Translations under genes and position numbers: made by a program
Shown here: piece after piece, positions 1 to 54,759 of the stretch
How positions within the stretch are numbered: the first letter of the stretch is position 1
How the letters are laid out: every line of letters starts with the position of its first letter
Assembly (NCBI RefSeq): GCF_030028105.1
Contig: NC_092370.1
Coordinates: forward strand, 136,935,522-136,999,521
Direction of reading: 5' to 3'
Source of the DNA: Mobula birostris
Lineage: Eukaryota
Length of the DNA: 64,000 bases
Notes under the pieces: model-generated
Databases searched by the model: none
Told to the model about the DNA's origin: nothing
What the model saw: only the letters and a program-made list of their open reading frames with translations

Positions 1-670
1 AACCCCAAAGTACGCCCCAGCTCCCCTGACCCACGCACAAGCAGCATAAGGCTACGACCCCGCCCCTACCAGCGAAAAAGCATTGACACATAGACCAAGC
101 ACACAAGCATCAATAAAGACACAGACTTGCAGTACCCCAAAGACTACTTGTTCACTCAGTATTCAACATACCACAAGCTCTCTCTTTTCCTAATAAGGGA
201 AAAAGTGGTGTCCCCGTTTCACAGCGAGAGGGGAGACATAACTAACAACTCACTGATTTATGATGTTAAAAGTCTGTTGTGTCGCTTTTTCCGAGCTCTA
301 TGCCTCTGGGCACACAGCCAGCAGAAAGCCTGCTGCTTCTGGTCTTCCTTGTTCTCGCGCGACGCATCAGGCAGAGGCGGCTCTGGCCTTGAATCTGCTC
401 ACCAACAGAGTCACGAAAATCTGGCACCCTGAAGGCACACTAGTCTCCTAGGCCAGATCCTTGGCATATTGAAAAGCGGCCAGTCATGAGGCCCTAAGAG
501 CGGGTCCCATTCCCGCAAAGAACCAAAGTCAGAGTGTAACTCCAGGTCAGGGTCTTAAAAGAACCTTGAAAGGGGAAAAAAGAGAGATCAAAGATAGAAA
601 TAAAGCTTCTACCGAAGATGCAAGCACAGAAGTTGCTGTTCAGCGCCATCATCACTAAGCTCCACCCTCT
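1..670 (-). mobile_element. 5' part of a probable non-autonomous LINE-derived repeat (runs off the window start)
   Basis: GC/CpG-richer block that ends abruptly at ~670. On the minus strand it opens with a YY1-like GATGGCG motif (643-650), typical of LINE 5' UTRs. No coding similarity recognised. Confidence 0.4.
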
Positions 671-4870: not shown

Positions 4871-4918
4871 TCTTCCGGGAATTTTAACCCAATCAATTTA
4901 CCCAGTCCCAAATTTGGT

Positions 4919-4944
4919 GTTCAAAATCGCGGACGAGATCCCCA
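4919..4944 (-). other. Primer-binding site, tRNA-Pro type
   Basis: TGGGGATCTCGTCCGCGATTTTGAAC begins 4 nt after the 5' LTR and resembles the tRNA-Pro complement TGGGGGCTCGTCCGGGATTTGAAC. Confidence 0.8.
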
Positions 4945-4948
4945 TTTA

Positions 4949-7275: not shown

Positions 7276-7478
7276 GAACACTAGAGGTTCTGCAGATGCT
7301 GGAAACTCAGAGCACGCTGAAGGTACTCAATAGGTCAGACAGAATCTATGGAGAGTAATAAACAGTTGACGTTTTGGTTCGAGACTCTGCATCAGGCCTA
7401 ATGCAGGGTCTTGGTCCAAAAAGTCAGCTGTTTATTCTTCTCCTTAGATGCCATGCCACCTGATCTGATGAGTTCCTG
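7276..7478. mobile_element. Palindromic Penelope-derived short element
   Basis: Imperfect inverted repeat centred at 7396/7397 (tgcatcagg|cctaatgca), built from the hammerhead-bearing PLE terminal unit. 11-bp TSD AGAATATGTTT (7265-7275, 7479-7489). Confidence 0.8.
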
Positions 7479-7772
7479 AGAATATGTTTTAAATTGGAAT
7501 GACAATTTCATTCGTTTATTTGTCCGCATCTGCAGTTGTAAGTTGAATTTATTTTTTAATTAGTTGGAAATTTTAAATCAGATGTTGAGAAGAACTGGTC
7601 CCACTGGGTTAATTTAGCAGACTCTTGGAGTTATGAATGTTCAAATGTGAGAGGAATTTAAAACAGAAGTAGGAATTCTGAATAAAACACATATTACATG
7701 ATTAGTTGTGATCTTAAAAAAAAAAGACCAAAAACATTCATGGGATCTGCAATGAACAAAACTGAATATTTC

Positions 7773-8435: not shown

Positions 8436-8449
8436 ATCATCTTGAAACT

Positions 8450-8620
8450 TAGAACATCTAACAGAACAGGTCAGGACTGGCCAATCACCCTATGATGTTG
8501 TGTTGATCTCGATACCAAGTACCCACATCTGTGTATCATCCGTATCCCTCGTTTCCCTTCATATTCAAATGTCTATCTAAATTCCCCTTAAGTTCCATCA
8601 CCCTGCTTGGTTCTACTCGC
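8450..8620 (-). mobile_element. Old CR1 3' end fragment
   Basis: Degenerate LDRHLNMKG.EGYG coding end and 3' UTR. Confidence 0.55.
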
Positions 8621-8649
8621 CGATCTTGCTGATTAAAACGTTGAGGAAG

Positions 8650-9213
8650 ATTGAAATTATTGTGGTAAGAGCAGAAGGCAAGCTGGTGATTAGCACCATC
8701 TACCAGCCTCTTGCTCGCTGCTCCTGAAAGGAGGAGTCTGTATGTGACCATCTCTTTCTCTCTTTCTCTCCCTCCAGCTTACTGCTCCCAGAGGAAAGGC
8801 CCTGTATTCGAATGGTCTCCCTCTCCTTCTCATCTGGTTTAACTGACACGGTTTGTGGGCTGGACTCTGTAGTTCATGTTATGATCTGTTTCAGATCGCT
8901 CCTTTTTTGTGATGCTAACTTGGGCAATTTTGATCGGGGCAGCCTGCAGATAACAAACAACACAGGACTAGATTAAACTGAACTGAGCTGAACTGAACAT
9001 GTCTGGACTTTTGATTTTGTGTTTATATTCTGTGTTTTGCTCTTTTTTTTCTGTTTGCAATTTTTTTTTGTGTGTAGAGGGTGTTGGATGCTTTCCTTTG
9101 AACAGTTTCCTTGGTTTTCTTTGTTTTGTGGCTGTCGATGGGAAGGTGATTCTTAGGGTTGTATACTGCATACATACATTGATAACAAATGTACTTTGAA
9201 CGTTTGAACTTTG
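8650..9213 (+). mobile_element. Non-autonomous element with Rex1-type 3' tail
   Basis: Ends gataacaaatgtactttgaacgtttgaactttga, the tail shared with the Rex1-type copies in this window. Confidence 0.55.
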
Positions 9214-10645: not shown

Positions 10646-11535
10646 TACCTTATTGGTTCAGTTCACAAGCATGTGGGTTTGTACAACTAATACCTGTGTG
10701 CACACCTATTAGGTTTCCCTAACCTTCCATGAACTGTCAAAGGAGAGAAAAGATACCACACGGGAAAAAAGCATCCAGTCTGGTCAAATGTTCCTCATTG
10801 CCCTGATGTGATCTCCTCGTGCCTGACATGGGCTCATCTGCTTACATGATGGTTGGTCTCTGAAGAGTAGTTGTTGCTTTGCATTCAAAACCTCTCACTT
10901 TTATACACTCCCTGCCAATTCAAATGTTGTGCTTCAATCTTATTGTCTCTGGCCTATCTAGATTATGTGTGTCAACTTGCCTTGGCCCCTGTTCCAAGCC
11001 AGCATTATTTTATTACCCTTCTCTCAAGTGACAACTTGCAATTAATGTCTCTTTGTTTTGAATCAGAGAAGACCAGCCAATCATTAGTCTTGAGTTACTC
11101 AGGTCAGACACAGACTCCCCTTTTCATAAATTCCCCCATTCATAAACCAGGTGTTCTATCATACCAAAGAACATTTAGTCACAAATAGCTTCTTATTTAA
11201 AAATGATTTCTAGTTCAACAGATTATCAGGAGCATCATTGTGTCCACTTTAAAGCACTTTGATACAGTTATTCCAGAGCAAAACCAGTTCACAAGACAGT
11301 CACAGAATGGAGGTTGCAGAACAGCTTCACAAAATGATAGCCTCCATTCCTTCAACCACATGGCTAGAACAAAGACAATTTGTTTGTCCACTTACAATGT
11401 TTTTAACTTATTCAGGTTCACTGATTTGTAGATTGTAGTTCTTTCTGGTAATCAGCATGAAGAAATAAAGACTGTTTTTGTTTGAATTAGTATCTAATAT
11501 ACAATATTCGCATAATTCCAGAATACACCCTAACA

Positions 11536-12307
11536 GATTATTATCTGAATGGTGGCCGATTAGGAAAAGGGGAGGTGCAACGAGACCTAGGTGTCATTAT
11601 ACACCAGTCATTGAAAGTGGGCATGCAGGTACAGCAGGCGGTGAAAAAGGCGAATGGTATGCTGGCATTTATAGCGAGAGGATTTGAGTACAGGAGCAGG
11701 GAGGTACTACTGCAGTTGTACAAGGCCTTGGTGAGACCACACCTGGAGTATTGTGTGCAGTTTTGGTCGCCTAATCTGAGGAAAGACATCCTTGCCATCG
11801 AGGGAGTACAAAGAAGGTTCACCAGATTGATTCCTGGGATGGCAGGACTTTCATATGATGAAAGACGGGATGAACTAGGCTTATACTCGATGGAATTTAG
11901 AAGATTGAGGGGGGATCTGATTGAAACGTATACAATCCTAAAGGGATTGGACGGGCTAGATACAGGAAGATTGTTCCTGATGTTGGGGAAGTCCAGAACG
12001 AGGGGTCACAGTTTGAGGATAAAGGGGAAACCTTTTGGGACTGAGATTAGGAAAAACTTCTTCACACAGAGAGTGGTGAATCTGTGGAATTCTCTGCCAC
12101 AGGAAACAGTTGAGGCCAGTACATTGGCTATATTTAAGAGAGAGTTAGATATGGCCCATGTGGCTAAAGGGATCAGGGGGTATGGAGGGAAGGCTGGTAG
12201 AGGGTTCTGAGTTGGATGATCAGCCATGATCATACTGAATGGCGGTGCAGGCTCGAAGGGCCGAATGGCCTACTCCTGCACCTATTTTCTATGTTTCTAT
12301 GTTTCTA
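11536..12307 (+). mobile_element. CR1 LINE, 5'-truncated (RT C-terminus plus 3' UTR), subfamily A
   Basis: ORF 11575-12210 QRDLGV...LVRPHLEYCVQFWSP...RTRGHSL; (TTTCTATG)n tail; possible TSD CTAACA (11530-11535, 12305-12310). Confidence 0.95.
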
Positions 12308-12475
12308 ACATAGGGGATGGTAGGGGTTTAGGATTCATAGTTTGAGAGGGTGGGAGAGGCTCTTCACATTTAAAGAGTTGCTGGATGTGACCTGCAAGGA
12401 GGTGGGATTAGCCTAAAATGCAAAGCTAATAGTAACCAGAAAATAAAACAGTTTAAATTAAATTTCTGAATTTCC

Positions 12476-13710
12476 ATATAGAAACCATAGAAACCATAGA
12501 AACTACAGCAGAGAAACAGGCCTTTTGGCCCTTCTTGGCTGTGCCGAACCATTTTCTGCCTAGCCCCACTGACCTGCACACGAACCATATCCCTCCATAC
12601 ACCTCCCATCCATGTATCTGTCCGATTTATTTTTAAATGTTAAAAAAGAACCCGCATTTACCACCTCGTCTGGCAGCTCATTCCACACTCCCACCACTCT
12701 CTGTGTGAAGAAGCCCCCTCTAATGTTCCCTTTAAACTTTCCCCCCTCACCCTTGACCCATGTCCTCTGGTTATTTTCTCCCATTGCCTCAGTGGAAAAA
12801 GCTTGCTTGCATTCACTCTATCTATACCCATCATAATTTTATATACCTCTATCAAATCTCCCCTCATTCTTCCACGCTCCAGGGAATAAAGTCCTAACCT
12901 ATTCAAGCTTGCTCTGTGACTGAGTTTCTCAAGTCCCGGCAACATCCTTGTAAACCTTCTCTGCACTCTTTCAACCTTACTTATATCCTTCCTGTAATTT
13001 GGTGACCAAAACTGAACACAATACTCCAGATTCGGCCTCACCAATGCCTTATACAAGCTCATCATAACATTCCAGCTCTTATACTCAATACTTTGATTAA
13101 TAAAGGCCAATGTACCAAAAGCTCTCTTTACGACTCTATCTACCTGTGACGCCACTTTTAGGGAATTTTGTATCTGTATTCCCAGATCCCTCTGTTCTAC
13201 TGCACTCCTCAGTGCCTTACCATTAACCCTGTATGTTCTACGTTGGTTTGTCCTTCCAACGTGTAACACATCACACTTGTCAGTATTAAACTCCATCTGC
13301 CATTTTTCAACCCATTTTTCCAGCTGGTCCAAGTCCGTCTGCAGGCTCTGAAAACCCTCCTCACTGTCTACTACACCTCCAATCTTTGTATCATCAGCAA
13401 ATTTGCTGATCCAATTTACCACATTATCATCCAGATCATTGATATAGATGACAAATAACAATGGACCCAGCACTGATCCCTGTGGCACACCACTAGTCAC
13501 AGGCCTCCACTCAGAGAAGCAATTCTCTACCACCACTCTCTGGCTTCTTCCATCGAGCCAATGTCTAATCCAATTTACCACCTCTCCATGTATACCTAGC
13601 AACTGAATTTTCCTAACTAACCTCCCATGCGGGACCTTGTCAAAGGGCTTACTGAAGTCTATGTAGACAATATTCACTGCCTTCCCTTCATCCGCTTTCC
13701 TGGTAATCAC
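12476..13710 (-). mobile_element. CR1 LINE, 5'-truncated, subfamily B
   Basis: [13 protein letters not shown] and KFADDTK RT motifs; (TTTCTATGG)n tail at 12476-12503; frameshift near 12780. Confidence 0.95.
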
Positions 13711-13890
13711 CATCCATCTACGTGCCATGTATTTGTACCTGCTTTCAGTGAGCCTCTGTCTCATGTCTTACTCCTACCAGGTGATCTAGTGGAGTGACTG
13801 AATGGCTGTTGGTAATCTCGTGGCATTCCATGAAAAAGGCCATAGATGACCTTGCAGAATCACCACAAACTGCTCTGGTTCAGGACACCT

Positions 13891-13990
13891 CAGTCTTTAT
13901 GAAAGATCCCGACCTGAAACGTCGACTCTTTATTCCGCTGCACTGATGCTGCCTAACCTGCTGAGTTCCAGCAGAATTTTATGTGTATTA
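13891..13990 (+). mobile_element. Penelope terminal unit with degenerate hammerhead
   Basis: cagtc-TTTATGA-aagatcccgacct-GAAACGTC-gact, followed by the conserved downstream unit. Confidence 0.7.
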
Positions 13991-15519: not shown

Positions 15520-16052
15520 TGTACCTTGTAAGGTGGCCAATGAGTCTACATTCATGGTCTTCTGCTGTTGTAGCTCATCCACTTCATGGTCTGAGGTGTT
15601 GTGTTCAGAGATGCTCTTCTGCACCTCAGTGTTGTATCACGTGATTATTTGAGTGAGTTTCGCCTTCCTGTCAGTTTGAACCACTCTCTTCTGACCTCTC
15701 TCATTAACAAGGCCCCTTTGCCCACAGAACTGCCACTTATTGGATGTTTTTTTTTCTTTTTCGCAAATGCTCTGTGAAGTCTAGAGACTGTTGTGTGTGA
15801 AAATCCCGGGGGAACATCAGTTTCTGAGATAATCAAACCACCCTGTCTGACACCAACAATCATTCCATGGTCAAAAGCACTTAGATCACATTTCTTCCCC
15901 ATTCTGATGTTTGGCTTGAACAACAACTGAGCCTGTTGACCAGGACTGCATGCTTTTATGCAATGTGTTGCTGCAAAATGATTGGCTGATTAGATATTTT
16001 TATTAGCGAACAGGTGTACAGATGTACCTAATGAAGTGGTCACTGGTGTTTA
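15520..16052 (-). mobile_element. Tc1-derived MITE carrying the transposase N-terminal HTH remnant
   Basis: MGKKCDLSAFDHGMIVGVRQGGLIISET; TIR-like ends. Confidence 0.85.
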
Positions 16053-16949: not shown

Positions 16950-17558
16950 ACAAACCATAAACACAAGAGATTCCGCAGATGCTGGAAATCTCCATTCGTG
17001 GTGAAGGGTCCCTGGCTGAAATATTGACTGTTTATTCCCTCCATAGCTGCTGCCAGACATACTGAGTTCCTCCAGCATTTTGTGTGTGTTGCTCAAAATT
17101 TGAATTATTTGCAGGGCAAAACCAGCAGTATACCTTTTATTCTTAATTGTTCTTTTCAGCTGCAGTGTAGGCTTCATTTACCATTTGAGAGTTTTAATTA
17201 ATGGCTCTGTTTGGCCTAGCGTTTAATGTTTTCTTTTCCCTTTAACACTATTCTCATTAAAGTCTGTGAACTATCGACCTGCTTCTGTGCCTCACACACC
17301 GCACTTGGGCCATATCCGAACTGTGGGGGGGGGGGGGTGACACTTTCGTTCTGACACCAGCAGATATCATGTCCCGTAATCTCAGGATTTGCCCTGCAAA
17401 TAGTTCGAATTTTGAGCAACACACACAAAATGTTGGAGGAACTCAGCATGTCTGGCAGCAGCTATGGAAGGAATAAAGAGTCAACATTTCAGGCAGAGAC
17501 CCTCCACCACGAATCGAGATTTCCAGCATCTGCAGAATCTCGTGTGTTTATGGTTTGT
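16950..17558. repeat. Long inverted repeat: 171-bp arms (16950-17120, 17388-17558) with a 267-bp spacer
   Basis: Arms are reverse complements with roughly 90% identity by eye. Each contains a rearranged Penelope terminal unit plus some non-Penelope flank. Confidence 0.92.
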
Positions 17559-18469: not shown

Positions 18470-18880
18470 TCATTATTTGAGTTACTATCCCCTTCTGTCA
18501 GCTTGAACCAGTCTGGCCATTCTCTTCTGACCTCTCTCATGAACAATGCATTTTTGCCCACAGGACTGCTGTTCACTGATTTTTTTGTAGTTCACACCAT
18601 TTTCTGTGAATTCTAGAGACTTATGTGTGAAAATCCCAGAAGACCAGCAATTTCTGAGATAATCTAACCATCTCATCTGGCACCAACAATCATTCCATGA
18701 TCAGTCAGTTAGATCATATTTCTTCCCTGTTCTGATGTTTGATCTGAACAACAACAGAACCTCTTGACCATGTGAGCATGCTTTTTTTACTTTGAATTGC
18801 TGTCATGTGGTTGCCTTATTAAATATTTACGTTAACAAGCAGATGTACAGGTCTACCTAATAAAATGGCTACTGAGTGTA
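18470..18880 (-). mobile_element. Tc1-derived MITE, partial
   Basis: ERGQKRMARLVQADR; TIR ends at ...ctactgagtgTA (18880). Confidence 0.85.
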
Positions 18881-22640: not shown

Positions 22641-23860
22641 ATCTTTTATAAACCTACTGATTCCTATGTTTATCTTGCCTAAACTTCTTTCCACACTGTC
22701 TACTGTAAAAATGCTATTCCTTTTTCTCAGTTCCTTTGTCTCCATTGCATTTGCTCCCAGGATGAGGCTTTCCTTTCCAGGACATCAGAGATGTCTCCCT
22801 TGAAAAAATGTGGCTTCCCTTCTTCCATCATTGATGCTGCTCTCAGCCGTATCTCCTCCAATCCTGAATGCCCACACTCACTCTATCTTCCCGCCAGATA
22901 AACAGTGAAAGAGTTCCTCTTGTCCTTACCTACCACCCCGTGAGCCTCCACATCCAACACACCATTCTCTGCAAAGTTTGCCATCTCCAAACAGTTTCTA
23001 CCACCAAACATATGTTTACCTTCCCTCCACCTCCACCCCGTCCCTGCTCTCTGCAGTGATTACTCCCTCCATAATTCCCTTGTCTATTCCTCCCTCTGCA
23101 CTAATCTTCCTCCCGGCACCTATCGCTGCAAGGGGCTAAAGTGGTACGCCTGCCAATTCACCTCCTCCATTATCTCCATTCATTGCACCAAAAGTCCTTC
23201 CAAGAGAGGCAACACTTCACATGTGAATCTGCTCTGGTCACTTATTGTGTCCAGTGCTCCTAATGCAGCCTCTTTTAATTGGTGAGATCTGTCGTAAATT
23301 CAGGTATCACTTCGTTGAGCATCTTCATCCCATCTGCCAAAAGTGGAACTTCCCGGTAGCCAAACATTTTAATTCTGATTCTTCTCGCTGTTCCAACATC
23401 TTGGTCCATGGCCTCCTCCACTGACTTGATGAACCACCTCATGGTGGAGGAGCAGCACCTTATATTCCATCTGGGTAGCCTCCAACATGACGGCATGAAG
23501 ATTGATTTCTCCTTCCGGCAAAAAAACATTCACTCCTCCTCTCCTCTTCTTCTGTACCCCACTCTAGCCCCTTACCACTTCTCAACTGCCTATCACCTCC
23601 TCCTTACCTTTCTCATATGGTCCACTCTCCTCTCCTATCAGATTGCTTCCTCTCCAGCCCTTTACCTTTCCTACCCACCTGGCTTCACCTATCATCTTCT
23701 AGCTTTCCTCCTTCCCCTTGCCCCACCTTTTCATTCTGGCATCTTCCCCCTTCCTCTTCTGTCCTAAAGTAAGGTCTCAGCCCAAAGTGTCGACTGTTTA
23801 CTCATTTCAATAGATGTTGCCTGACCTGCTGAGTTCCTTCAGAATTTTGTGTGCATTGAT
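22641..23860 (+). mobile_element. Penelope-like element, 5'-truncated (RT thumb, GIY-YIG endonuclease remnant, terminal unit)
   Basis: IFYKPTDS...CKNAIPFSQFL...ICSQDEAF, VPLVLTYHP, FTCES..VTYCVQC, EEQHLIFHLGSLQ; degenerate hammerhead at ~23760-23800. Confidence 0.88.
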
Positions 23861-25869: not shown

Positions 25870-28810
25870 ATAAAGATAAAGAAAGATTGACATTATTTGT
25901 CACATTAACAATGAAACATAGAACATAGAACATAGAATAGTACAGCACAGTACAGGCCCTTGGGCCCACAATGTTGTGCCAACCCTCAAACCCTGCCTCC
26001 CATATAAGCCCCCACCTTAAATTCCTCCATATATCTGTCTAGTAGTCTCTTAAACTTCACGAGTGTATCTGCCTCCACCACTGACTCAGGCAGTGCATTC
26101 CACGCACCAATCACTCTCTGAGTAAAAAACCTTCCTCTAATATCCCCTTTGAACTTCCCACCCCTTACCTTAAAGCCATGTCCTCTTGTATTGAGCAGTG
26201 GTGCCCTGGGGAAGAGACGCTGGCTATCCACTCTATCTATTCCTCTTATTATCTTGTACACCTCTATCATGTCTCCTCTCATCCTCCTTCTCTCTAAAGA
26301 GTAAAGCCCTAGCTCCCTTAATCTCTAATCATAATGCACACCTTCTAAACCAGGCAGCATCCTGGCAAATCTCCTCTGTACCCTTTCCAATGCTTCCACA
26401 TCCTTCCTATAGTGAGGTGACCAGAACTGGACACAGTACTCCAAGTGTGGCCTAACCAGACTTTTATAGAGCGGCATCATTACATCGTGACTCTTAAACT
26501 CTATCCCTCGACTTATGAAAGCTAACACCCCATAAGCTTTCTTAACTACCTTATCCACCTGTGAGGCAACTTTCAGGGATCTGTGGACATGTACCCCCAG
26601 ATCCCTCTGCTCCTCCACACTACCAAGTATCCTGCCATTTACTTTGTACTCTGCCTTGGAGTTTGTCCTTCCAAAGTGTACCACCTCACACTTCTCCAGG
26701 TTGAACTCCACCTGCCACTTCTCAGCCCACTTCTGTATCCTATCAATGTCTCTCTGCAATCTTTGACAATCCTCTACACTATCTACAACACCACCAACCT
26801 TTGTGTCATCTGCAAACTTGCCAACTCACCCTTCTACCCCCACATCCAGGTCATTAATAAAAATCACAGAAAGTAGAGGTCCCAGAACAGATCCTTGTGG
26901 GACATCACTAGTCACAATTCTCCAATCTGAATGTACTCCCTCCACCATGACCCTCTGTCTTCTGCAGGCAAGCCATTTCTGAATCCACCTGGCCAAACTT
27001 CCCTGCATCCCATGCCTTCTGACTTTCTGAATAAGCCTACCGTGTGGAACCTTGTCAAATACCTTACTAAAATCCATATAGATCACATCCACTGCACTAC
27101 CCTCATCTGTATGCCTGGTCACCTCCTCAAAGAACTCTATCAGTCTTGTTAGACACAATCTGTCCTTCACAAAGCCATGCTGACTGTCCCTGATCAGACC
27201 ATGATTCTCTAAATGCCCAGAGATCCTATCTCTAAGAATCTTTTCCAACAGCTTTCCCACCATAGACGTAAGACTCACTGGTCTATAATTACCCAGACTA
27301 TCCCTACTACCTTTTTTGAACAAGGGGACAACATTCGCCTCCCTCCAATCCTCCGGTACCATTCCCATGGACAACGAGGACATAAAGATCCTAGCCAGAG
27401 GCTCAGCAATCTCTTCCCTCACCTCATGGAGCAGCCTGGGGAATATTCCATCAGGCCCCGGGGACTTATCCGTCCTAATGTATTTTAACAACTCCAACAC
27501 CTTCTCTCCCTTAATATCAACATGCTCCAGAACATCAACCTCACTCATATTGTCCTCACCATCATCAAGTTCCCTCTCATTGGTGAATACCGAAGAGAAG
27601 TATTCATTGAGGACCTCGCTCACTTCCACAGCCTCCAGGCACATCTTCCCACCTTTATCTCTAATCGGTCCTACCTTCACTCCTGTCATCCTTTTTTTCT
27701 TCACATAATTGAAGAATGCCTTGGGGTTTTCCTTTACCCTGCTCACCAAGGCCTTCTCATGCCCCCTTCTTGCTCTTCTCAGCCCCTTCTTAAGCTCCTT
27801 TCTTGCTTCCCTATATTCCTCAATAGACCCATCTGATCCTTGCTTCCTAAACCTCATGTCTGCTGCCTTCTTCCACTGGACTAGATATTCCACTTCTCTT
27901 GTCACCCATGGTTCCTTCACCCTACCATTCCTTATCTTCCTCATCGGGACAAATTTATCCCTAATATCCCGCAAGAGATCTCTAAACATCGACCACATGT
28001 CCATAGTACATTTCCCTGCAAAAACATCATCCCAATTCACACCCACAAGTTCTAGCTTTATAGCCTCATAGTTTGCCCTTCCCCAATTAAAAATTTTCCT
28101 GTCCTCTCTGATTCTATCCTTTTCCATGATAATGCTAAAGGCCAGGGAGCGATGGTCACTGTCACCCAGATGCTCACTCACTGAGAGGTCTGTGACCTGA
28201 CCCAGTTCATTACCTAGTACTAGATCTAGTATGGCATTCCCCCTAGTCGGCCTGTCCACATACTGTGACAGGAATCCGTCCTGGACACACTTAACAAACT
28301 CTGCCCCAACTAAACCCTTGGAACTAATTAGGTGCCAATCAATATTAGGGAAGTTAAAGTCCCCCATGGTAACAACCCCGTTATTTTCGCACCTTTCCAT
28401 AATCTGCCTCCCAGTATCTCTGCTGCTACCAGGGGGCCTATAGAATACCTCCAATAGAGTAACTGCTCCCTTCCTGTTCCTGACTTCCACCCATACTGAC
28501 TCAAAAGAGGATCCTGAAACATCGAAATATATGGTGAAATGTGTCAATTTGTGTCTGTGACCCACACAGACTGAGGATTATGTTGGGGCAGCTCACAAAT
28601 GTTATCACATTTACGGTGCCAATATTGCATGCTCACAACTTGCTAACCCTAACTGTAGGTCCTTGGAGGTAAACTGGAGCCTGGCGAAAACCCACACAGT
28701 CATGAGCAGAACACGCAAACTCCTTACAGGCAGCAGTGGAATCAGACCCTAGTCAGTGATCACTGGCACTGTAAAACGATTGTGCTAACCACTATTCTAC
28801 CATGTCGCCC
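25870..28810 (-). mobile_element. V-type tRNA SINE split by the CR1 insertion
   Basis: Tail at 25870-25919 and body/head at 28515-28810 rejoin at the TSD TGAAACAT. Confidence 0.7.
25920..28514 (-). mobile_element. CR1 LINE ORF2 (partial endonuclease, RT, 3' UTR), subfamily C
   Basis: One frame from 25986 to ~28510 with two stops (26826-26828, 26325-26327). Motifs [33 protein letters not shown]. (TTCTATG)n tail; TSD TGAAACAT (25912-25919, 28515-28522). Confidence 0.96.
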
Positions 28811-32570: not shown

Positions 32571-33348
32571 TTACCTTGACATCACATTAGCTCTCTGCAG
32601 CTTCTAGCTGGTAATGACCCTGCAGTTTATGCACAAAGGAGAGCTGGGCATTGGTATTGTCACCAAGAATAAGCAGGAGCCCAGCTCTCCTCTATGCATA
32701 AACCACAGGATCATTACCATCAAGGGTTCCTCTCCAGAAGCTAGACACTTCCTCTACCTCATAGGGGATGGCACCTCTGCAGTGCAGATGGCATCATATT
32801 CGAAACGTGTCAATCCTTCCTTCCATCAAACAGGGACCTGTCACCATGAAACACACCTTAACAGTAATCAAGGAAGCAGACCCAATCTACATGAATTTAA
32901 AAAAGAATTCCAGCAATACACTTGGTCTTCTGAATGCCCCTCATAACTAGAAATTCTGCCACATTGAGATCGATGGTAACAAGCTGATTGGCTGGTTATT
33001 TACTCCGTGTGTGTAACCTCACATAGTCCTGAAAATCAAGGTGCTCAGCATAACAGAGTACAAATAGCAATTAAAGACCAGCGTCATTAAAGCACCAGTA
33101 ATCCATCAGTCAGGTACCTGAGGCAATACACGAACAACTGTCACACCACAGAGATACTCCTCGTTGTCTGATAACCCGCGTGTCTGCTCTGATGGAAGAC
33201 CCATCCCAGTGGATGTGACCTAAGCACAACTGGAAATGTAGGAGGTGATTCATCAATAACTTAAAGTTAATTTAGCTACTGCAAGCTCACCTGCTCGGCA
33301 GGGCCATGGACAAACGGAACCGGTGAATAAAGACGTAATTATTTCCAT

Positions 33349-33510
33349 AAGTACAAGAGAATCTACAGATGCTGCAAATCCAGAGTAACACATACAAAAT
33401 GCTGGAAGAACTCAGATATTCCTGATGAAGGGCTTCAGCCCAATTCATTGATAGTTTATTCCTTTCCATTGATGCTGCCTGACCTCCTGAGTTCCTCCAG
33501 CATTTTATTA
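33349..33510. mobile_element. Partly palindromic Penelope-derived short element
   Basis: Inverted aaaatgctggaagaactcag / ctgagttcctccagcatttt flanking CTGATGAAGGG. Confidence 0.7.
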
Positions 33511-34032: not shown

Positions 34033-34967
34033 TGTCATGGTCTGGTCCGTGAGGTCTGTATTCCGGCTCACGGTCAGGTCCAGCGACTCTTGCTCCAGGT
34101 TTTCATATCTACCCTGTTTCTGTTCTTGTTGAACTTTAATTGAGGCAGCTGATGCTCGTTGGGGCTGGCTGCATAAATACCTTCAGAAACCAGGGCATGG
34201 GCGCTGGATTGTTCTTGTCCTACTCCTTGTATCGCTTCATCTGCCTCCTGTTTCCTCGCCTGAAGCCCTGCCTTGTCTTGCTGGTAACTCTCGCCTCGTC
34301 TCGCCTGCAGTCTTGTCCTGGATCCACCCTGTACCTAGCTCCCTTCCTGTCCCTTGCCTACGCCCAGGTAGGCCAGGCCATCTTGCTGTTACCTGCGGTT
34401 GGTTCTGTCCCTTCCTGTCCCTTGCCTCCGCCGGGTAAGCTGGGTCATCTTGCCGTTACCTGCGGTTGGTTCTGTCCCTTCCTGTTCCATGCCTCCGTCA
34501 GGTGGTGATCCGCGCCCTGCCCAGGAGTACCGCGCCCTGCCCAGGAGGAGCCTGCCTAGCCTCAAGCCTGAAGACTCCAGCCTTCTGCCTAGCCTCAAGC
34601 CCGAAGGCTCCAGCCTCCTGCCTAGCCTCAAGCCCGAAGACTCCAGCCTCCTGCCTAGCCTCTAGCCTGAAGACTTCAGCCTCCTGCCAAGCATCGCCTC
34701 TAGCTTCTAGCCTGAAGACTCCAGCCTTGTCCTGTCTGCCTGCCAAGCCCTCGTCCTTGCCTAGCTCTGGGGTCTGAGCCAGAGGCAACACCCAATTACT
34801 GGGTCCTTGTCCAGTCTCTGGCTCGGATTCCAAGCCCGGGCTCCTGTTCCGGATTCCCGGTTTTCGTGTCCATGTCCTTGCTCTCACCCTGTATCCTCGT
34901 CCTGTCCCTAGTCCTTCAGTGTCTGTGTCTTGCACTTGGGTTCATTCCTAGCCACCTCCTTATGACA
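34033..34967. mobile_element. Solo LTR (935 bp)
   Basis: TGTCAT...ATGACA termini; imperfect 5-bp TSD TAGAG/TAGGG; GC-rich against the flanks; inserted in an older LINE 3' fragment. Confidence 0.8.
34552..34745. repeat. 33-bp minisatellite inside the solo LTR
   Basis: Unit ctgcctagcctcaagcccgaagactccagcctc, about 5-6 copies, degrading toward the 3' side. Confidence 0.9.
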
Positions 34968-35420
34968 TAGGGGGGATGGGGGTGTGTAACTAGAATGGTT
35001 GATCAGATTCACTGCCTGGGGTGAAGAAACTTTTAAGATGGTTTGAAGTTTTTGAAGCTTTTTTTGTTGTTTTTATAGCCCTATAGCACTCTCCAAAGAA
35101 GAATCTCTGACTCAGTGAATCAAGATTGGGCAGTGTCTGCAATGTCCAAACAGTTACTGTAACAATAATTTACTCTTTATTGAGTCCAAGAATAAGTATT
35201 ATTAGTCCAAACGTTTGATTATAAATTAGAAAGTTAATTTCTTAAGCTGATAGGCAAGAACGGTTAGAAACAAGCAGTTTACTCCTTTATCTGCTTGTTT
35301 TACTTCATTTTTAACATAAAATATAACATTAGGAATGATGAATTGCTAAATCAGAGGTTCATGGAGTTATAGAAATAAACTGTATAGCACTGAACCAGGC
35401 TCTCTAACTCAATGAGTCAA

Positions 35421-35458
35421 CAGTCCTGACGAAGGGTCTCGGCCTGAAACGTCGACTG
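35421..35458 (+). ncRNA. Minimal type I hammerhead ribozyme (Penelope type)
   Basis: CAGTC-CTGACGA-AGGGTCTCGGCCT-GAAAC-GTC-GACTG: stem I CAGTC/GACTG, intact CUGANGA and GAAA core, loop-less palindromic ACGT stem III, GUC cleavage triplet at 35451-35453. Confidence 0.85.
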
Positions 35459-35554
35459 CACCTCTTCCTACAGATGCTGCCTGGCCTGCTGCGTTCACCA
35501 GCAACTTTGATGTGTGTTGCTTGAATTTCCAGCATCTGCAGAATTCCTGTTGTT
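35422..35554 (+). mobile_element. Young 133-bp Penelope terminal-unit insertion
   Basis: Flanked by the direct repeat TGAGTCAAC (35413-35421, 35555-35563); CpGs retained. Confidence 0.85.
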
Positions 35555-35604
35555 TGAGTCAACTCTTGGTTTGTCTCTCTGCAGACGCTGCCTGACCTGC
35601 CATC

Positions 35605-36172
35605 TACACTCAATAGCCACTTTATTAGGTACACTTGTGCACCTGCTCATTAAAGCAAATATCTAATCAGCCAATCACATGGCAGCAACTCAGTACATAA
35701 AAGCGTGAAGACATGATCAAGAGGTTCAATTGTTGTTCAGACCAAGCATCAGATTAGGGTAGAAGTGTGAATTAACTGCCTTTGACCATGGAATGATTTT
35801 TGGTGCCAGATGGGGTGGTTTGAGTATCTCAGAAAATGCTGATCTCCTGGGATTTTCATGCAAAACAGTCTCTGGAGTGTACAGAGAATAGTAGAAGGAA
35901 CAAAAAAAATACAGTGTGCGACAATTCTGTGGACAAAAACACCTTGCTAATGAGAGAGGTCACAGGAAAATTGCCGGACTGGTTCACGTTGACAGGAAAG
36001 CAACAGTAACTCAAATCACTGCAAGTTACAACAGTGGTGTGCAGAAAAGCATCTCGAAGTGCACATGTCAAACCTTGAAGTGGATGGGCTTCAGCAGTGG
36101 AAGATCACAATCATACACTCAGAAACTACTTTATTGGTATAGGACGGACCTAACAAAGTGGCTACTGATCAT
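35605..36172 (+). mobile_element. Tc1-derived MITE, full length
   Basis: TAcactcaatagccactttattaggtac start, transposase HTH remnant, terminal TIR hairpin. Confidence 0.88.
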
Positions 36173-42982: not shown

Positions 42983-43290
42983 CTAATCTGGCCATACTCC
43001 TGTGATCTCTCTCATTAATAAGGTGTTTTTGTCTACAGAATGGATTTTTATTCTGGAATTTTCTCTGCCGGCTCTATTGACTGTTGTGCATAGAGACATC
43101 AAGAGGTCAGCAGTTTGTGAGATACGAAAGCTACTCCGTCTGGCACCAACAATCATTCCACAGTCAAGGTCACTTAGATCATATTTCTTCCCCATTCTGA
43201 CGTTTGATCTGAACAACATGCTTGCATGTTTTTATGCATTGAGTTGCTGCCACGTGATTGGCTGATAATACATTTGCATTAATGGACAAT
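42983..43290 (-). mobile_element. Tc1-derived MITE, partial
   Basis: MGKKYDLSDLDCGMIVGARR. Confidence 0.85.
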
Positions 43291-44510: not shown

Positions 44511-45029
44511 GCCTACTTAAACACAATTAAGCTCCAACAAATCACATGCAGGCTATTTTGTAATTAATCCGTATTTGTCCAAATGACTGCATAATCAGTC
44601 CCTGATCATTCTTTTCTGTACTTTCCGTATCACCAATGTAAAACAGACTGGTCTCTGATCACTGAATTCATCCTGACCCCTTTTCTTTTCTGCCATTTCC
44701 AGTTATTAGACATGGGCCCACAACCTGTGACTGGTTAGTAGATTGTGGCAAAGGCCTCTAATTCCCTCCTTAATTCACCTTAGAAAGCCTGAATGCATCT
44801 CATCTACTGTCGATCGGGAGGTTTATTCACGTGAAGAGCGGATAGTTATTCTAGTATTTCCTCATCATCAATTCTTTGCCTAATTTCTGGCATGTAAACT
44901 CAGACTTCAACAATGCTTTGAGGATGTAACAACACTTCTAGAAGATTATTAGGATTTCTGTTGAAAAACAAATCTCTGTGAAGTAAGAATGAAATCTCTT
45001 CTTAGTATCACCTTCAACCTAAGGGCAAG

Positions 45030-45440
45030 AACTTTGATTTCTCTAACTGCTGGTAATTTCCACCCCCCACCTCCTCCCCTTCCACCTTCTCTCTTATCCA
45101 TTCCCCATTCTGGCTCCCCCTTAACCTTTCTCTTCTCTGCACATGCCTATCACCTCCCTCTGGTGTACCTCCTCTTTCCCTTTCTCCTGTGGTCCAGTAT
45201 CCTCCCCAATCAGATCCCGTCTTCTCCAACCCTTTACCTCTTCCAAATCCCAGCTTCTCACTTCATTCCCCATCCCCCACCCAGCTCATACTCCTTCCCC
45301 TCTCCCCATTTTCTTATTATGGTTTCTTCCTACTTCTTTTCCAGTCCTCATGAAATGTCTCACCTGAAACATTGGCTGTTTATTCCTCTCCATACGTGCT
45401 GCCTGACCTTCTGAGTTCCTCCAGCACTTTGTGTATGTTC
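45030..45440 (+). mobile_element. Penelope 3' region
   Basis: Pyrimidine-rich UTR homologous to 23500-23860; degenerate hammerhead at ~45342-45380. Confidence 0.75.
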
Positions 45441-45621
45441 CTCTCTTCTTGAATGGGACAATTTGTGGTTGCAGCACTGTTACTCCACCAGTGCGTTTAC
45501 TGTTGGCTACCATCTAAAACTGCCTGCTGCCAAGTTGTAATGTGTCTTCACTATAGAATAAGATCAAACATTAAAATAAATGGTCAGTTGATCTAGTCAT
45601 ACTTCATTTACATGCTGGAAA

Positions 45622-46149
45622 TACAGTGGCCACTCTATTAGCTACATCTGTGCACCTGCTCATCAATGCAAATATCTGATAAGCCAATCATGTGACAGCA
45701 ATCCGGCACATAAAAGCACACAGACGTAGTCAAGAGATTCAGTTGTTTTTCAAGCCAGCGTCAGGATGGGGAAGAAATGTGATCTTAGTGACTTTGACCA
45801 TGGAATGATCATTGGTGCCAGACAGGGTGGTTTGAGTATCTCAGAAGCTGCTGATCCACAACAGCCTTTGGAGTTTACAGAGAATGATGTGAAAAAGAAA
45901 AAATAAATCAAATGAGTGGCAGTTCTACGGCCTTGTTAATGAGAGAGGTCTGAGGAGAATGGTTGGATTGTTTCAAGCTGACAGAAAGGCAACAGTAACT
46001 TGAATAAACATTTTGTTGCAAAAGTGGTGTGCAGAAAAGCATCTCTGAATGCACAACATGTTGAACCTTGAAGTGGATGGGTTACAGCAGCAGAAGACCA
46101 CAAGCATACACTCAGTGGCCAGTTTATTAGCCACGGGCTATTAAGTGTA
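45622..46149 (+). mobile_element. Tc1-derived MITE
   Basis: TAcagtggccactctattag start; internal second TIR at ~46107. Confidence 0.88.
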
Positions 46150-49115: not shown

Positions 49116-52100
49116 CCATATAACCATATAACTATTACAGCACGGAAACAGGCCATCTCGGCCCTTCTAGTCCATGCCGAACTCTTACTCTCACCTAGTC
49201 CCACCGACCTGCACTCAACCCATAACCCTCCATTCCTTTCCTGTCCATATAGCTGTCCAATTTAACTTTAAGTGACAACATCGAATCTACCTCAACCACT
49301 TCTGCTGGAAGCTCATTCCACACAGCTGCCACTCTCTGAGTACAGAAGTTCCCCATCATATTACCTCTAAACTTTTGCCCTTTAACTCTCAACTCATGTC
49401 CTCTTGTTTGAATCTCCCCCACTCTCAATGGAAAAAGACTATCCACGCTAACTCTATCTATCCCCCTCATAATTTTAAACACCTCTATTAAGTTCCCCCT
49501 CAACATTCTATGTTCCAAAGAATAAAGACCCAACTTGTTCAACCTTTCTCTGTAACTTAGGTGATGGAACCCAGGTGACATTCTAGTAAATCTTCTCTGT
49601 ACTCTCTCTATTTTGTTGACATCTTTCCTATAATTTGGTGACCAAAACTGAACACAATACTCCAAATTTGGCCTCACCAATCCCTTGTACAATTTCAACA
49701 TTACATCCCAACTCCTATACTCAATGCTCTGATTTATAAAGGCCAGCATACCAAAAGCTGTCTTCACCACCCTATCCACATGAGATTCCACCTTCAGGGA
49801 ACTATGCACCATTATTCCTAGATCCCTCTGTTCTACTGCATTCTTCAATGCCCTACCACTTACCATGTATGTCCTATTTCGATTAGTCCTACCAAAATGT
49901 AGCACCTCACATTTATCAGCATTAAGCTCCATCTGCCATCTGTCAGCCCACTCTTCTAACTGGCCTAAATCTCTCTGCAAGCTTTGAAAACCTACTTCAT
50001 TATCAACAACTTCACCTATCTTAGTATCATCTGCATACTTACTCATCCAATTTACCACCCCATCATCCAGGTCATTAATGTATATGACAAACAACATTGG
50101 ACCCAGTACAGATCCCTGAGGCACACCACTAGTCACCGGCCTCCAATCTGACAAACAATTATCCACCACCACTCTCTGACGTCTCCCATCCAGCCACTGC
50201 TGAATCCATTTTACTACTTCAATATTAATACCTAACGATTGACCCTTCCTAACTAACCTTCCGTGTGGAACCTTGTCAAAGGCCTTACTGGTCCATATAG
50301 ACAACATCCACCGCTTAAACGTCATCTTTCCCTGTAACCTCTTCAAAAAATTCAATAAGATTTGTCAAACATGACCTTCCATGCACAAATCCATGTTGAC
50401 TGTTCCTACTCAGACCCTGTCTATCGAGATAATTATATATACCATCTCTAAGAATACTTTCCATCAATTTACCCACCACTGACGTCAAACTCACAGGCTG
50501 ATAATTGCTAGGTTTACTCTTAGAACCCTTTTTAAACAATGGAACAACATGAGCAATACGCCAATCCTCCGGCACCATCCCCGTTTCTAATGACATTTGA
50601 AATATTTCTGTCAGAGCCCCTGCTGTTTCCATACTAACTTCCCTCAACGTCCTAGGGAATATCCTCTCAGGACCCGGAGACTTAGCCACTTTTATATTCC
50701 TTAAAAGTGCCAGTACTTCATCTTCATTAATCATCATAGTCTCCCTACCTGTTTCCCTTATCTCACACAATTCAATATCCTTCTCCTTCATGAATACCGA
50801 AGAAAAAAAATTATTCAGAATTTCCTCAATCTCTTTTGGCTCCACACATAGTTGTCCACTCTGTTTCTCTAAGGGACCAATTTTATCCATAGAAACCATA
50901 GAAACTACAGCACAGAAACAGGCCTTTTGGCCCTTCTTGGCTGTGCCGAACCATTTTCTACCTAGCCCCACTGACGTGCACACGGACCATATCCCTCCAT
51001 ACACCTCCCATCCATGTATCTGTCCAACTTATTCTTAAATGTTAAAAAAGAACCCGCATTTACCACCTCATCTGGCAGATCATTCCATACTCCCACCACT
51101 CTCTGTGTGAAGAAGCCCCCTCTAATGTTCCCTTTAAACCTTTCCCCCCTCACCCTTAACCCATGTCTTCTGGTTTTTTTCTCCCCTTGCCTCAGTGGAA
51201 AAAGCCTGCTTGCATTCACTCTATCTATACCCATCATAATTTTATATACCTCTATCAAATCTCCCCTCATTCTTCCACGCTCCAGGGAATAAAGTCCTAA
51301 CCTATTCAAGCTTTCTCTGTAACTGAGTTTCTCAAGTCCTGGCAACGTCCTTGTAAACCATCTCTGCACTCTTTCAACCTTATTTATATCCTTCCTGTAA
51401 TTTGGTGACCAAAACTGAACACAATACTCCAGATTCGGCCTCACCAATGCCTTATACAACCTCATCATAACACTCCAGCTCTTATACTCGATACTTTGAT
51501 TAATAAAGGCCAATGTACCAAAAGCTCTCTTTACGACCCTATCTATTTGAGACGCCACTTTTAGGGAATGTTGTATCTGTATTCCCAGATCCCTCTGTTC
51601 TACTGCACTCCTCAGTGCCTTACCATTAACCCTGTATGTTCTACCTTGGTTTGTCCTTCCAACGTGTAATACCTCACACTTGTCTGTATTAAACTCCATC
51701 TGCCATTTTTCAGCCCATTTTTCCAGCTGGTCCAAGTCCCTCTGCAGGCTCTGAAAACCTTCCTCACTGTCTACTACACCTCCAATCTTTGTATCATCAG
51801 CAAATTTGCTGATCCTCACTATCCTTTTCTATTAATATAACTGTAGAAACCCTTGGGATTTATTTTCACCTTACTTGCCAAAGCAACCTCATATCTTCTT
51901 TTAGCTTGTCTAATTTCTTTCTTAAGATTCTTTTTACATTCTCTATTTTCCTCGAGCACTTCATTTACTCCATGCTGCTTATATTTATTGTAGAGATCTC
52001 TCTTTTTTTGAACCAAGTTTCCAATGTCCCTAGAAAACCATGGCTCTCTCAAACTTTTAACTTTTCCTTTCAACCTAACAGGAACATAAAGATTCTGCAC

Positions 52101-52729
52101 CCTCAAAATTTCAACTTTAAATAACCTCCATTTCTCTATTACATTCTTCCCATGAATCAAATTGTCCCAATCCATTCCTTCTAAATCCTTTCGCATCTCC
52201 TTAAAGTTAGCCTTTCTCAAATCAAAAATCTCAATCCTGGGTCCAGACCTATCCTTCTCCATAATTATATTGAAACTTATAGCATTGTGATCACTGAACC
52301 AGAAGTGCTCCCCAACACAAACCTCTGTCACCTGACCTTCTCATTCCCTAACAGGAGATCCAATACTGCCTCTTCTCTAGTTGTATCTCTATGTACTGCT
52401 GCAAAAGTCTATCCTGCACACATTTTGCAAACTCCAAACCATCCAGCCCTTTTGGTGATCTATAATACACCCTCATAAATATTACTACAATTTTCCCATT
52501 CCTGAGTTCCACCCAAATAGCCTCCCTAGATGAGCCCTCTAATCTATCCTGCCAGAGCACCGCTGTAATATTTTCTCTGACAAGCAATGCAACAGCTCCC
52601 CCTCTTGTCCCTCTGATTCTATCACGCCTGAAGCAATTAAATCCAGGAATATTTAATTGCCAATCAAACCCCTCCTGTAACCATGTTTCACTAATAGCTA
52701 CCTCGTCATACTTCCAGGTATCAATCCAT
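49116..52729 (-). mobile_element. CR1 LINE ORF2 (endonuclease plus RT), subfamily D, with frameshifts and a nested CR1
   Basis: [41 protein letters not shown]; (GTTATATG)n tail. Confidence 0.95.
50889..51815 (-). mobile_element. CR1 subfamily B copy nested in the subfamily D element
   Basis: Near-identical to 12486-13412; own (TTTCTATGG)n tail; open frame 50962-51819. Confidence 0.95.
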
Positions 52730-53199
52730 GACCACCATAGCAATCCCATAATGTTCCACAGAACAGCATGAGCAGTAACAACAACAAAACAAGATCTCTC
52801 ACACCTATCCACCATTCACATATTTCAGACAGATCTTCAACCCTTTCTATAGATAGAAATCAAACAGGGTACAAAACTAATAACTTTTTTTGTGGCTTTT
52901 GTTTTCCAGGTAGATTAAAATTAGTTCAAACAATAAAATGCACCACTTATAGAAATGATGATGGTAAAGCAAAAAGAATTGTCATAGAATAAGTATGGAA
53001 ATAAAAGATTGGTCCAGAAAAGACAAAAATCAGAATATCAAAATCACAAGTGAATCATTAGAATTGTGTGGAAGCTTTAGACAGAGAGATCAGAGTGGCA
53101 GAAAGGTGGAGTATTGAAGTAATAGATGATAGGAAGCTCAGTGTCGTACTTGCAGTGAAACAAAGACTTTCTGGAAAGATAGCTCTGAGTGATGCATGT

Positions 53200-54366: not shown

Positions 54367-54578
54367 GCTATCTGCCTACTTCCTCTCTTTCCCTCCTTCT
54401 GTGATCTCTGCTGCCCTTTGACCCTTCGCATCTTTTTTCTCCATCGTGATGAAGGGTCTTGGCTGGAAGCGTTGGCTGTACTCTCTTTTCCATAGAAGCT
54501 GCCTGGCCTGCTGAGTTCCTCCAGCATTTTGTGTGTGTTGCTTGGATTTCCAGCAACTGCAGATTTTCTCTTGTTTGA
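54367..54578 (+). mobile_element. Penelope terminal unit with degenerate hammerhead
   Basis: GTGATGAAGGGTCTTGGCTGGAAGCGTT plus the downstream unit. Confidence 0.75.
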
Positions 54579-54759
54579 ATTTATCAGCCTAAATTCAAAT
54601 TTGATATTTCAAGAGTTGATATCTCTGTCTCCATTATTAATGGGCTGTCATTGCAATTGCATTATGCTAGACATCGCCCTCTTCCTAAAAGATAAAGGAA
54701 AGAGGAAATTGATAAGGAAAATTCCATGGAACGAGGAGAAACAAGTGTAAAATAGAAAT

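What the first reader, a model, noticed from the sequence alone, without database searches (positions are those of the whole stretch)
35413..35563. Intact minimal hammerhead ribozyme moving as a 133-bp unit with its own TSD
Seen: CAGTC CTGACGA AGGGTCTCGGCCT GAAAC GTC GACTG keeps every core nucleotide. Stem III is the loop-less palindrome ACGT. The element starts at the ribozyme and is flanked by TGAGTCAAC repeats. Degenerate copies lie at ~7400, 13891, 17000, 17490, 23760, 29580, 33421, 45342 and 54445. Established: Penelope-like elements carry minimal type I hammerheads thought to cleave as dimers. Inference: a very abundant retrozyme-like family, about one copy per 6-7 kb here, whose intact members could cleave host transcripts in trans-dimers or yield small circular RNAs. 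This is the best candidate for an under-described system in the window.
Basis: partly seen in the sequence, partly recalled or inferred. Interest (0 to 1): 0.7.

Follow-up and report, generated by a model that had tools for sequence, protein, structure and literature searches.

The report
Penelope leader fragment with hammerhead ribozyme
This 133-base insert is a short end piece of a very common Penelope-type jumping gene, not a mobile family of its own; it carries a known kind of predicted self-cutting RNA motif, about a third of sampled sister copies begin at the motif's first bases, and rare stutter joints fall on its predicted cut site, a possible fossil trace of cutting in living cells.

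Summary
The motif, the predicted cut (C35453) and the target-site duplication are real. The retrozyme reading is not supported. The 133 bp are the hammerhead-plus-tail end of an autonomous, endonuclease-bearing Penelope-like element (Neptune/Nematis type) with over 50,000 young copies. In a near-complete copy the same bases also form the leader before the ATG. Minimal hammerheads in such elements are published (PMC4209133). 51 of 100 sampled copies carry upstream element sequence, 29 are inverted pairs and 20 are solo; whole-unit tandems number about 6 genome-wide. Two extras were not found in my literature searches. First, 31 of 100 copies begin within 10 bases of A35422, likely the RNA's 5' end. 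Second, in 82 loci with a head-to-tail stutter of the core, 29 join the predicted cut base to that 5' end. The next sites have 11 loci and about 10-12 matches. This suggests, without proving, cleavage in vivo. Similar joints occur at lower rates at non-ribozyme positions, a hairpin route exists, and 5' ends are not enriched at the cut. This scan had already noted both extras on other DNA of this genome. No RNA or bench evidence was obtained.

The parts
35413..35421 (+). Left copy of the target-site duplication (TGAGTCAAC); its last C supplies the chance fifth stem-I pair
   Evidence: upstream of A0 in long copies is TT
35422..35554 (+). Inserted unit: hammerhead plus tail of the PLE pseudo-LTR, identical in kind to the element's 5' leader
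   Evidence: 97.8% identity to the end of the ORF-bearing copy L081; same bases precede the ATG at +170 in L228/L385
35422..35457 (+). Minimal type I hammerhead: stem I AGTC/GACT, core CTGACGA and GAAA, weak stem II (35434-35445, G-U at the base), loop-less stem III ACGT
   Evidence: sequence; folds; descriptor in PMC4209133
35453..35453 (+). C17, predicted cleavage after this base; top donor position of stutter junctions genome-wide
   Evidence: hammerhead numbering
35517..35556 (+). Two family-wide 3' end zones (about +95 to +109 and +130 to +134), the PLE 'tail'; this copy ends at the second
   Evidence: 43 and 47 of 100 copies (reference ends at +133); two RT start sites in PMC11167929
35555..35563 (+). 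Right copy of the target-site duplication; first 2 letters shared with the element's tail
35380..35600 (+). Target: an older, decayed hammerhead-plus-tail copy of a related PLE, split by the insertion at its own GTC region
   Evidence: flanks joined in the script align to the 23760 copy, score 62 vs shuffle maximum 54 of 300
22647..23860 (+). Older 5'-truncated PLE copy: ORF end (GIY-YIG region, broken), pyrimidine-rich 3'UTR, decayed hammerhead at 23761
   Evidence: 70% identity over 896 columns to L081; translations
16959..17115 (+). Older copy with inverted tail arm
17394..17549 (-). Older copy with inverted tail arm
7288..7400 (-). Older decayed copy, head-to-head pair
13891..13989 (+). 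Older short copy starting at the hammerhead edge, ending at the first tail site
33362..33502 (+). Older copy with inverted arm, core broken
45011..45442 (+). Older copy with PLE 3'UTR upstream
54444..54583 (+). Older copy with short pyrimidine tract upstream, core broken

Best explanation
The insert is the hammerhead-plus-tail end of an abundant endonuclease-bearing Penelope-like retrotransposon, likely made when the element's reverse transcriptase started inside the tail of an RNA that begins at the first bases of the hammerhead (A35422, or 4 bases upstream) and ran off that RNA's 5' end after 133 bases. Shown: membership of the PLE, two 3' end zones, pile-up of 5' ends at the ribozyme edge, TSDs. 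Inferred: that the edge is a capped transcription start in the pseudo-LTR; that mostly uncut RNA is copied; that after run-off the enzyme sometimes re-engages and copies a second short piece. The excess of such pieces ending at C17 would record a minority of RNAs cut by the ribozyme in the germ line (about even odds).
For: L081 holds an RT + Cx4CxxC linker + GIY-YIG ORF, a 3'UTR and then the same 133 bp. L228/L385 show the unit at both ends of one 3,465-bp period, the first running into an ATG at +170. Unselected sample of 100 of 52,707 copies: 5' ends 31 at -10..+10, 21 spread over -300..-11, 37 further up, 7 at +11..+27, 4 at +28..+36; 3' ends 43 at +95..109 and 47 at +130..134. Genome-wide raw junction share per 10-base zone: 2,691/35,747 (7.5%) at the edge, 644/28,107 (2.3%) 25 bases upstream, 840/76,932 (1.1%) at the cut. 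Starts peak at 0/+1 (45 of the first 100, by eye) with a sharp upstream edge and a small second peak at -4/-3; both A's sit in initiator-like words (recalled consensus). An unexplained G before A0 or A-4 recurs in stutter joints (7 of 82 loci; more) and next to TSDs (L087, L105, L159), as expected from copying a cap. Stutters: 90 matches, 82 loci; period 32 in 31 and period 36 in 19; C31|A0 20 loci, C31|A-4 5, C31|-5/-3 4, T30-G-A 7. C31|A0 occurs in three young haplotypes and one other family, in unique flanks. The donor stays at C31/T30 when the acceptor shifts by 4 bases. No donor extends more than 10 bases upstream along the young reference (0 of 90) against 51 of 100 ordinary copies. Internal RT start at two sites, a 30-40 bp tail and uncut RNA as main template are shown in vitro for an anole PLE (PMC11167929). 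PLE promoters lie in the pLTR (PMC2377424). Template jumping with a 1-2 nt overhang is shown for R2 RT (PMC8857657).
Against: No RNA 5'-end data and no cleavage assay. 20 of the 31 edge copies are inverted pairs, and many such joints use 2-4 nt microhomologies from the ribozyme's own near-palindrome, which could inflate the peak. The raw zone shares are uncorrected for flank composition (8 of 20 edge copies pass the filter). For cleavage: 5' ends are rarest, not commonest, at the cut zone, and only 221 of about 55,000 copies break at +28..+32, mostly single-base indels. Stutter joints without homology also occur at C34 (11 loci), C67 (10 matches, 8 loci; 6 checked and real) and T73-G (7 matches). 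Hairpin snap-backs at C31 exist (7 of 10 hits) and add AG, the first two letters of the acceptor, so a two-step route without cleavage is possible. C31|A-4 has a 2-nt homology. One old-family donor (L358) does carry its pyrimidine tract. The anole study found no RNA-seq reads starting or ending at the cut.
Confidence: 0.7

Rival explanations
1. It is an ordinary 5'-truncated PLE 3' end; the pile-up at the ribozyme edge comes from an RT stop or from microhomology-guided joining in the near-palindromic hammerhead, with no RNA end there, and the C31 stutters come from hairpin snap-back during second-strand synthesis or repair.
For: Inverted joints often use AG, GTC, CGTC or AGTC/GACT homologies; predicted hairpin pairs +6..9 with +28..31; snap-backs seen at C31; stutters occur all along the leader; donor and acceptor share 5' ends and, in L267/L268, a private mutation, as re-copying of one cDNA would give.
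Against: Solo copies with the TSD abutting the start also cluster at the edge. The window copy starts at A0 with no homology. The extra G before A0/A-4 and the second start at -4 are unexplained by it. One-step snap-backs (7) are fewer than the two-step product (20 loci). Eleven C31/T30 loci (T30-G-A, C31|-5/-3) lack the AG route.
Confidence: 0.2
2. The edge is a splice acceptor (pyrimidine tract + AG at +1 or -3), as in Drosophila virilis Penelope where the intron ends at helix I; short units derive from spliced or mis-spliced RNA.
For: Pyrimidine tract and AG lie directly before TCCTGA in young and old subfamilies; intron end at helix I in PMC4209133 and PMC2377424.
Against: No shared upstream exon; TSDs abut the start; starts peak at 0/+1, upstream of the +2 exon start.
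Confidence: 0.06
3. One reading: a self-standing retrozyme-like family whose solo units propagate themselves, form circles and may cut host RNA in trans.
For: Solo units with TSDs exist in large numbers (20 of 100 sampled); a few loci hold arrays of 5-7 complete hammerheads with 59-79 bp periods; animal retrozymes are proposed to derive from PLE pLTRs (bioRxiv 10.64898/2026.07.22.740005).
Against: Solo units share sequence and subfamily variants with ORF-bearing copies and have variable 3' ends. They are not cut-to-cut monomers. Whole-unit tandems are about 6. A single hammerhead gives one cut and cannot release a circle. Monomer motifs were inactive in vitro (PMC4209133).
Confidence: 0.04

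Closest known systems
Minimal hammerheads (min-HHR) in pseudo-LTRs of metazoan PLEs (Cervera and De la Pena 2014, PMC4209133; read parts 1-2 of 4: abstract, results, discussion)
   Same: Type I, no loop 3, palindromic 15.2-16.2, short helix I, extra base after A9, in pLTRs, mostly as single motifs of truncated PLEs, some as inverted pairs; reported in fish Neptune, Poseidon and Xena.
   Different: U in place of C11.1 in most young copies; short helix II; over 50,000 near-identical copies against 4,000-9,000 motifs reported for coelacanth and Xenopus; a fixed 5' end and cut-site joints are not in the parts read.
Canonical EN+ PLEs of the Neptune/Nematis type (Craig et al. 2021, PMC8557442; passages)
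   Same: RT then CX2-5CxxC linker then GIY-YIG; partial tandems forming pLTRs; inverted 5'-truncated arms; 30-40 bp tail.
   Different: Clade not placed on a tree here; insertion into microsatellites not seen in the flanks read; about a third of copies start at one edge.
Poseidon PAc of the green anole (Frangieh et al. 2024, PMC11167929; read parts 1-2 of 4)
   Same: Two internal RT start sites downstream of the hammerhead matching genomic 3' ends; both strands primed; uncut RNA is the main template.
   Different: PAc's ORF starts inside stem II, here at +170; no reads at the cut were found there, while here rare genomic joints fall on it.
Non-LTR retrozymes (Cervera and De la Pena 2020, PMC7229834, passages; Li et al. 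2026 bioRxiv 10.64898/2026.07.22.740005, parts 1-3 of 5)
   Same: Type I hammerhead, non-coding, TSD longer than 4 bp, related to PLE pLTRs.
   Different: Those are 150-450 bp tandem arrays, mostly with canonical hammerheads, expressed as circles; this is a solo piece of an autonomous PLE.

Membership tests
Minimal type I hammerhead (min-HHR) | Core C3-U4-G5-A6-N7-G8-A9, G12-A13-A14-A15.1, U16.1-H17 | tested here: met
Minimal type I hammerhead (min-HHR) | Helix I closed by the 5' and 3' ends; palindromic, loop-less helix III | tested here: met
   AGTC/GACT and ACGT
Minimal type I hammerhead (min-HHR) | Conserved G10.1-C11.1 pair with an extra base after A9 | tested here: inconclusive
   Extra A present; 11.1 is U in this copy (G-U wobble), C in L081 and in 15 of 100 copies
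Minimal type I hammerhead (min-HHR) | Self-cleavage as dimer or with protein help | not testable with these tools
   Only indirect genomic joints; inactive hairpin is the predicted best fold
EN+ Penelope-like element | Single ORF with RT and C-terminal GIY-YIG, joined to this unit | tested here: met
   L081: RVT_1 E 7.3e-7 (29.5 bits, cut-off 29.6), GIY-YIG E 0.0075 (under cut-off); copies read are broken by stops or frameshifts
EN+ Penelope-like element | Pseudo-LTR from partial tandem, inverted 5' arms, 30-40 bp tail | tested here: met
Neptune/Nematis clades | CX2-5CxxC linker between RT and EN | tested here: met
   C-x4-C-xx-C before the GIY-YIG region in the L081 ORF; definition
Neptune/Nematis clades | Placement in the RT phylogeny | not tested
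   no reference set fetched
Non-LTR retrozyme | Tandem array of two or more complete units | tested here: not met
   This copy is solo; whole-unit tandems about 6 of 34 hits; short stutter arrays at a few other loci
Non-LTR retrozyme | Non-autonomous family distinct from the PLE body | tested here: not met
   51 of 100 copies run on into PLE 3'UTR/ORF; 97.8% identity to an ORF-bearing copy
Non-LTR retrozyme | Expressed as cut-to-cut linear and circular monomers | not testable with these tools
   Only assembled contigs of runs not on record as RNA; genomic ends do not match the cut

The most novel reading that the evidence does not exclude
The genome keeps a fossil record of the PLE replication cycle. 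Transcription starts, capped, at the first base of hammerhead helix I. The ribozyme does cut a share of germ-line RNAs at C17. The reverse transcriptase jumps from the RNA 5' end onto the freed 32/36-nt fragment or back into the leader. These 5' stutters seed arrays of complete hammerheads, a birth route for animal retrozymes. This would be in-vivo evidence for cleavage by a minimal PLE hammerhead, for which I found none in the papers searched.
Probability: 0.45. Interest if true: 0.72.

Novelty: new member of a known kind. Interest (0 to 1): 0.45.

Why it matters
The locus itself is one of tens of thousands of ordinary PLE ends with a published kind of motif. The value lies in the family's junction statistics. 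Whether minimal PLE hammerheads cut in vivo is open: they are inactive as monomers, weak as dimers, and dispensable in vitro in the one reconstituted PLE. Where PLE transcripts start and how retrozyme arrays arise are also open. This family gives exact, testable predictions: capped starts at A0/A-4, a 32/36-nt fragment with a cyclic-phosphate end, and specific loci with newborn hammerhead arrays.

Tried and rejected
Rfam scan: no hammerhead family hit. The first 30 loci were biased by requiring C before A0 and were left out of the distributions. One search had a one-base offset and only counted normal copies (54,960); it was redone. Cut-derived 5' ends: no pile-up. Cut-derived 3' ends: none apparent. 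Single-base deletions at the cut: by eye C28 8, G29 18, T30 6, C31 14, G32 27, 3 unclear of 76; cut-site CpG vs neighbouring CpG 41:26, p 0.086, inconclusive. An apparent stronger stutter site at +51 (about 55 of the first 100 of 204 hits) was rejected: 6 of 6 and 5 of 5 loci checked were normal upstream sequence with one substitution or of another subfamily. Positions +110 to +123 and the unlisted 104 hits were not examined. One master element as source of the C31 joints: rejected by haplotypes and flanks. RNA: no RNA holder listed; contigs of seven coded runs showed no joint from 35453 back to 35422 and cannot show starts, which is no evidence either way. Lunse et al. (dimer cleavage) was not held; seen only as cited in PMC6765202 (passages). 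PMC6155905 and PMC8857657: passages only. Searches for prior reports of fixed 5' ends or cut-site joints: 0 papers; 1 review; 2 unrelated; listings. No supplements were read; those of the 2026 preprint (closed) include one cartilaginous fish and might list this family. Strand bias in introns was not tested (no annotation).

Full report
Coordinates: positions are given relative to A35422 = 0, so the predicted cut follows C31 (35453). The window lies in a 4.01-Gb animal genome among LINE and LTR fragments.

Observation. The motif, the palindromic stem III and the flanking 9-mer are there. It is the only full core with a 4-pair stem I in the window. The fifth stem-I pair comes from the TSD. Position 11.1 is U, not C. 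The monomer is predicted to fold into an inactive hairpin, 4 kcal/mol below the hammerhead-like fold. The right repeat shares 2 letters with the element's tail. The insert landed inside an older decayed copy of a related element. The nine listed copies are real but decayed, and most show Penelope anatomy.

What it belongs to. Exact anchors within the unit occur 631, 20,986, 52,707 and 76,932 times, with 0 in reversed controls. L081 shows an inverted arm, an ORF with RT, a C-x4-C-xx-C linker and GIY-YIG, a pyrimidine-rich 3'UTR and the same 133 bp, all inside one TSD. L228/L385 has the unit at both ends of a 3,465-bp period, the first copy running into an ATG at +170. So the unit is both the 3' end and the 5' leader of a Neptune/Nematis-type PLE (definition). 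Minimal hammerheads in pLTRs, mostly as single motifs of truncated copies, are published.

Architecture of copies. I took the first 100 of 52,707 matches to an anchor downstream of the cut. 51 carry more than 60 bases of upstream PLE; of the 49 short ones 29 are inverted pairs and 20 solo. 3' ends fall in two zones, 43 at +95..109 and 47 at +130..134, like the two internal RT starts and the tail of the anole PLE. Solo copies starting at -10..+10, pooled from both anchored samples, have TSDs in 20 of 30 cases against 3 of 290 shuffled pairings (the script missed the window's own repeat, and about 5 of the 30 are not truly solo).

Fixed 5' edge. 31 of the 100 start at -10..+10 (2 of these calls are inflated by palindromic joints), against 21 over the 290 bases upstream and 4 at +28..+36. 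A second sample with another anchor looked the same. Genome-wide, the raw share of copies with foreign letters just beyond a 10-base zone is 7.5% at the edge, 2.3% upstream and 1.1% at the cut; these are uncorrected for flank composition. By eye, the first 100 edge junctions start at -5:1, -4:5, -3:4, -2:2, -1:10, 0:21, +1:24, +2:12, +3:9, +4:12. I infer an RNA 5' end at A0, with a minor one at A-4; both lie in initiator-like words (recalled consensus), and PLE promoters lie in the pLTR. An extra G before these A's in several joints fits a copied cap. Microhomology in inverted joints may inflate the peak.

Retrozyme test. The unit is not cut-to-cut. 5' ends are rare at the cut, and only 221 of about 55,000 copies break at +28..+32, mostly by one-base indels. 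Whole-unit tandems are about 6 of 34 hits. It fails the defining array test.

Stutter joints. A search for head-to-tail repeats of the core gave 90 matches at 82 loci. Period 32 has 31 matches and period 36 has 19; the other 11 possible lengths share 40, one of them having none (binomial p 4e-13 for period 32 under a uniform null). C31 joined to A0 without direct homology: 20 loci; to A-4: 5; to -5/-3: 4; T30-G-A: 7; C34: 11; other: 36 (one locus is in two classes). C31|A0 spans three young haplotypes and another family, in unique flanks. All sit at the 5' end of short insertions. Controls along the leader: 14 matches for about +38..+50, 81, 36, 37 and 34 for later windows. The best real sites there are C67 (8 loci), T73-G (7 matches) and a GT homology near +92 (10-12 matches). 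A larger peak at +51 was a false positive in 11 of 11 loci checked. So C31 leads the next sites by about 2.5- to 3.5-fold, and it stays fixed when the acceptor moves by 4 bases, which argues for a position rather than a distance.

Mechanism. Likely the RT runs off the RNA 5' end and re-engages, as R2 RT can with a 1-2 nt overhang (not shown for a PLE). A free 3' end at C17 would be the best landing site. Against this: joints without homology occur at other C's; hairpin snap-backs at C31 exist (7 of 10 hits) and could reach the same joint in two steps; deletions at the cut are not significantly enriched; the anole study saw no reads at the cut. I put cleavage at about even odds. A few stutters have grown to 5-7 complete hammerheads with 59-79 bp periods; these meet the array definition of a retrozyme and suggest how such arrays are born.

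RNA data gave nothing usable.

Novelty. The element and motif are new members of known kinds. I found no paper on the fixed edge or the cut-site joints, with the limits of the library and unread supplements. This scan had noted both on other DNA of this genome; those notes are not independent support. One of them claims a second site hit as often; my scan found none that large, apart from the false positive at +51, though +110..+123 was not covered.

Verdict: observation confirmed; interpretation partly supported; interest 0.45.

Noticed in passing
L427 (C4:27,795,119-453), L428 (C6:200,494,005-209), L429 (C6:45,303,165-433): Arrays of 5-7 complete hammerheads with 61, 59 and 79 bp periods at the 5' end of short insertions; alternating variants in L429 point to later DNA-level doubling. 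Candidate newborn retrozymes.
   Followed up: partly
G000 stutter joints, (e.g. L265, L284, L336, L338-L340): A second donor cluster at C34 (11 of 82 loci), at the end of the GTCGAC palindrome; unexplained.
   Followed up: partly
L267/L268 (C3:126,150,848-931): Head-to-head insertion in which both arms carry the C31|A0 stutter and all four units share one private substitution, so all came from one source.
   Followed up: partly
L293, L297-L299: Quasi-palindrome corrections: after C31 the sequence folds back for 5-6 bases and rejoins downstream, in copies with intact upstream sequence.
   Followed up: partly
window 35600-36170; related pieces at about 15956-16039, 18793-18880, 41722, 42567, 43232-43284, 45629-45713, 46107, 60337, 60813: Another dispersed repeat with matching ends in inverted orientation (35605-35630 and 36148-36168), DNA-transposon/MITE-like.
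   Followed up: no
window 1818-4897 (-): Broken gag/pol-like reading frames of an LTR retrotransposon (570 aa with a zinc knuckle); observed only.
   Followed up: no
window 11491-13767, 26325-28577, 49195-52815: Several CR1/L2-type LINE ORF2 fragments (label recalled from the motifs).
   Followed up: no
window 34500-34940: Short tandem repeat of about 30-33 bp that reads as a repetitive frame on the minus strand.
   Followed up: no
window 32621-32707: Long hairpin with weak Rfam microRNA-type scores (36.5 bits, gathering 70); probably an inverted repeat.
   Followed up: no
   Followed up: no
L264, L266, L277, L286, L422-L426: A second, distinct hammerhead-bearing PLE family with another stem II, tail and 3'UTR; it also shows edge starts and a C31|A0 joint.
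   Followed up: partly
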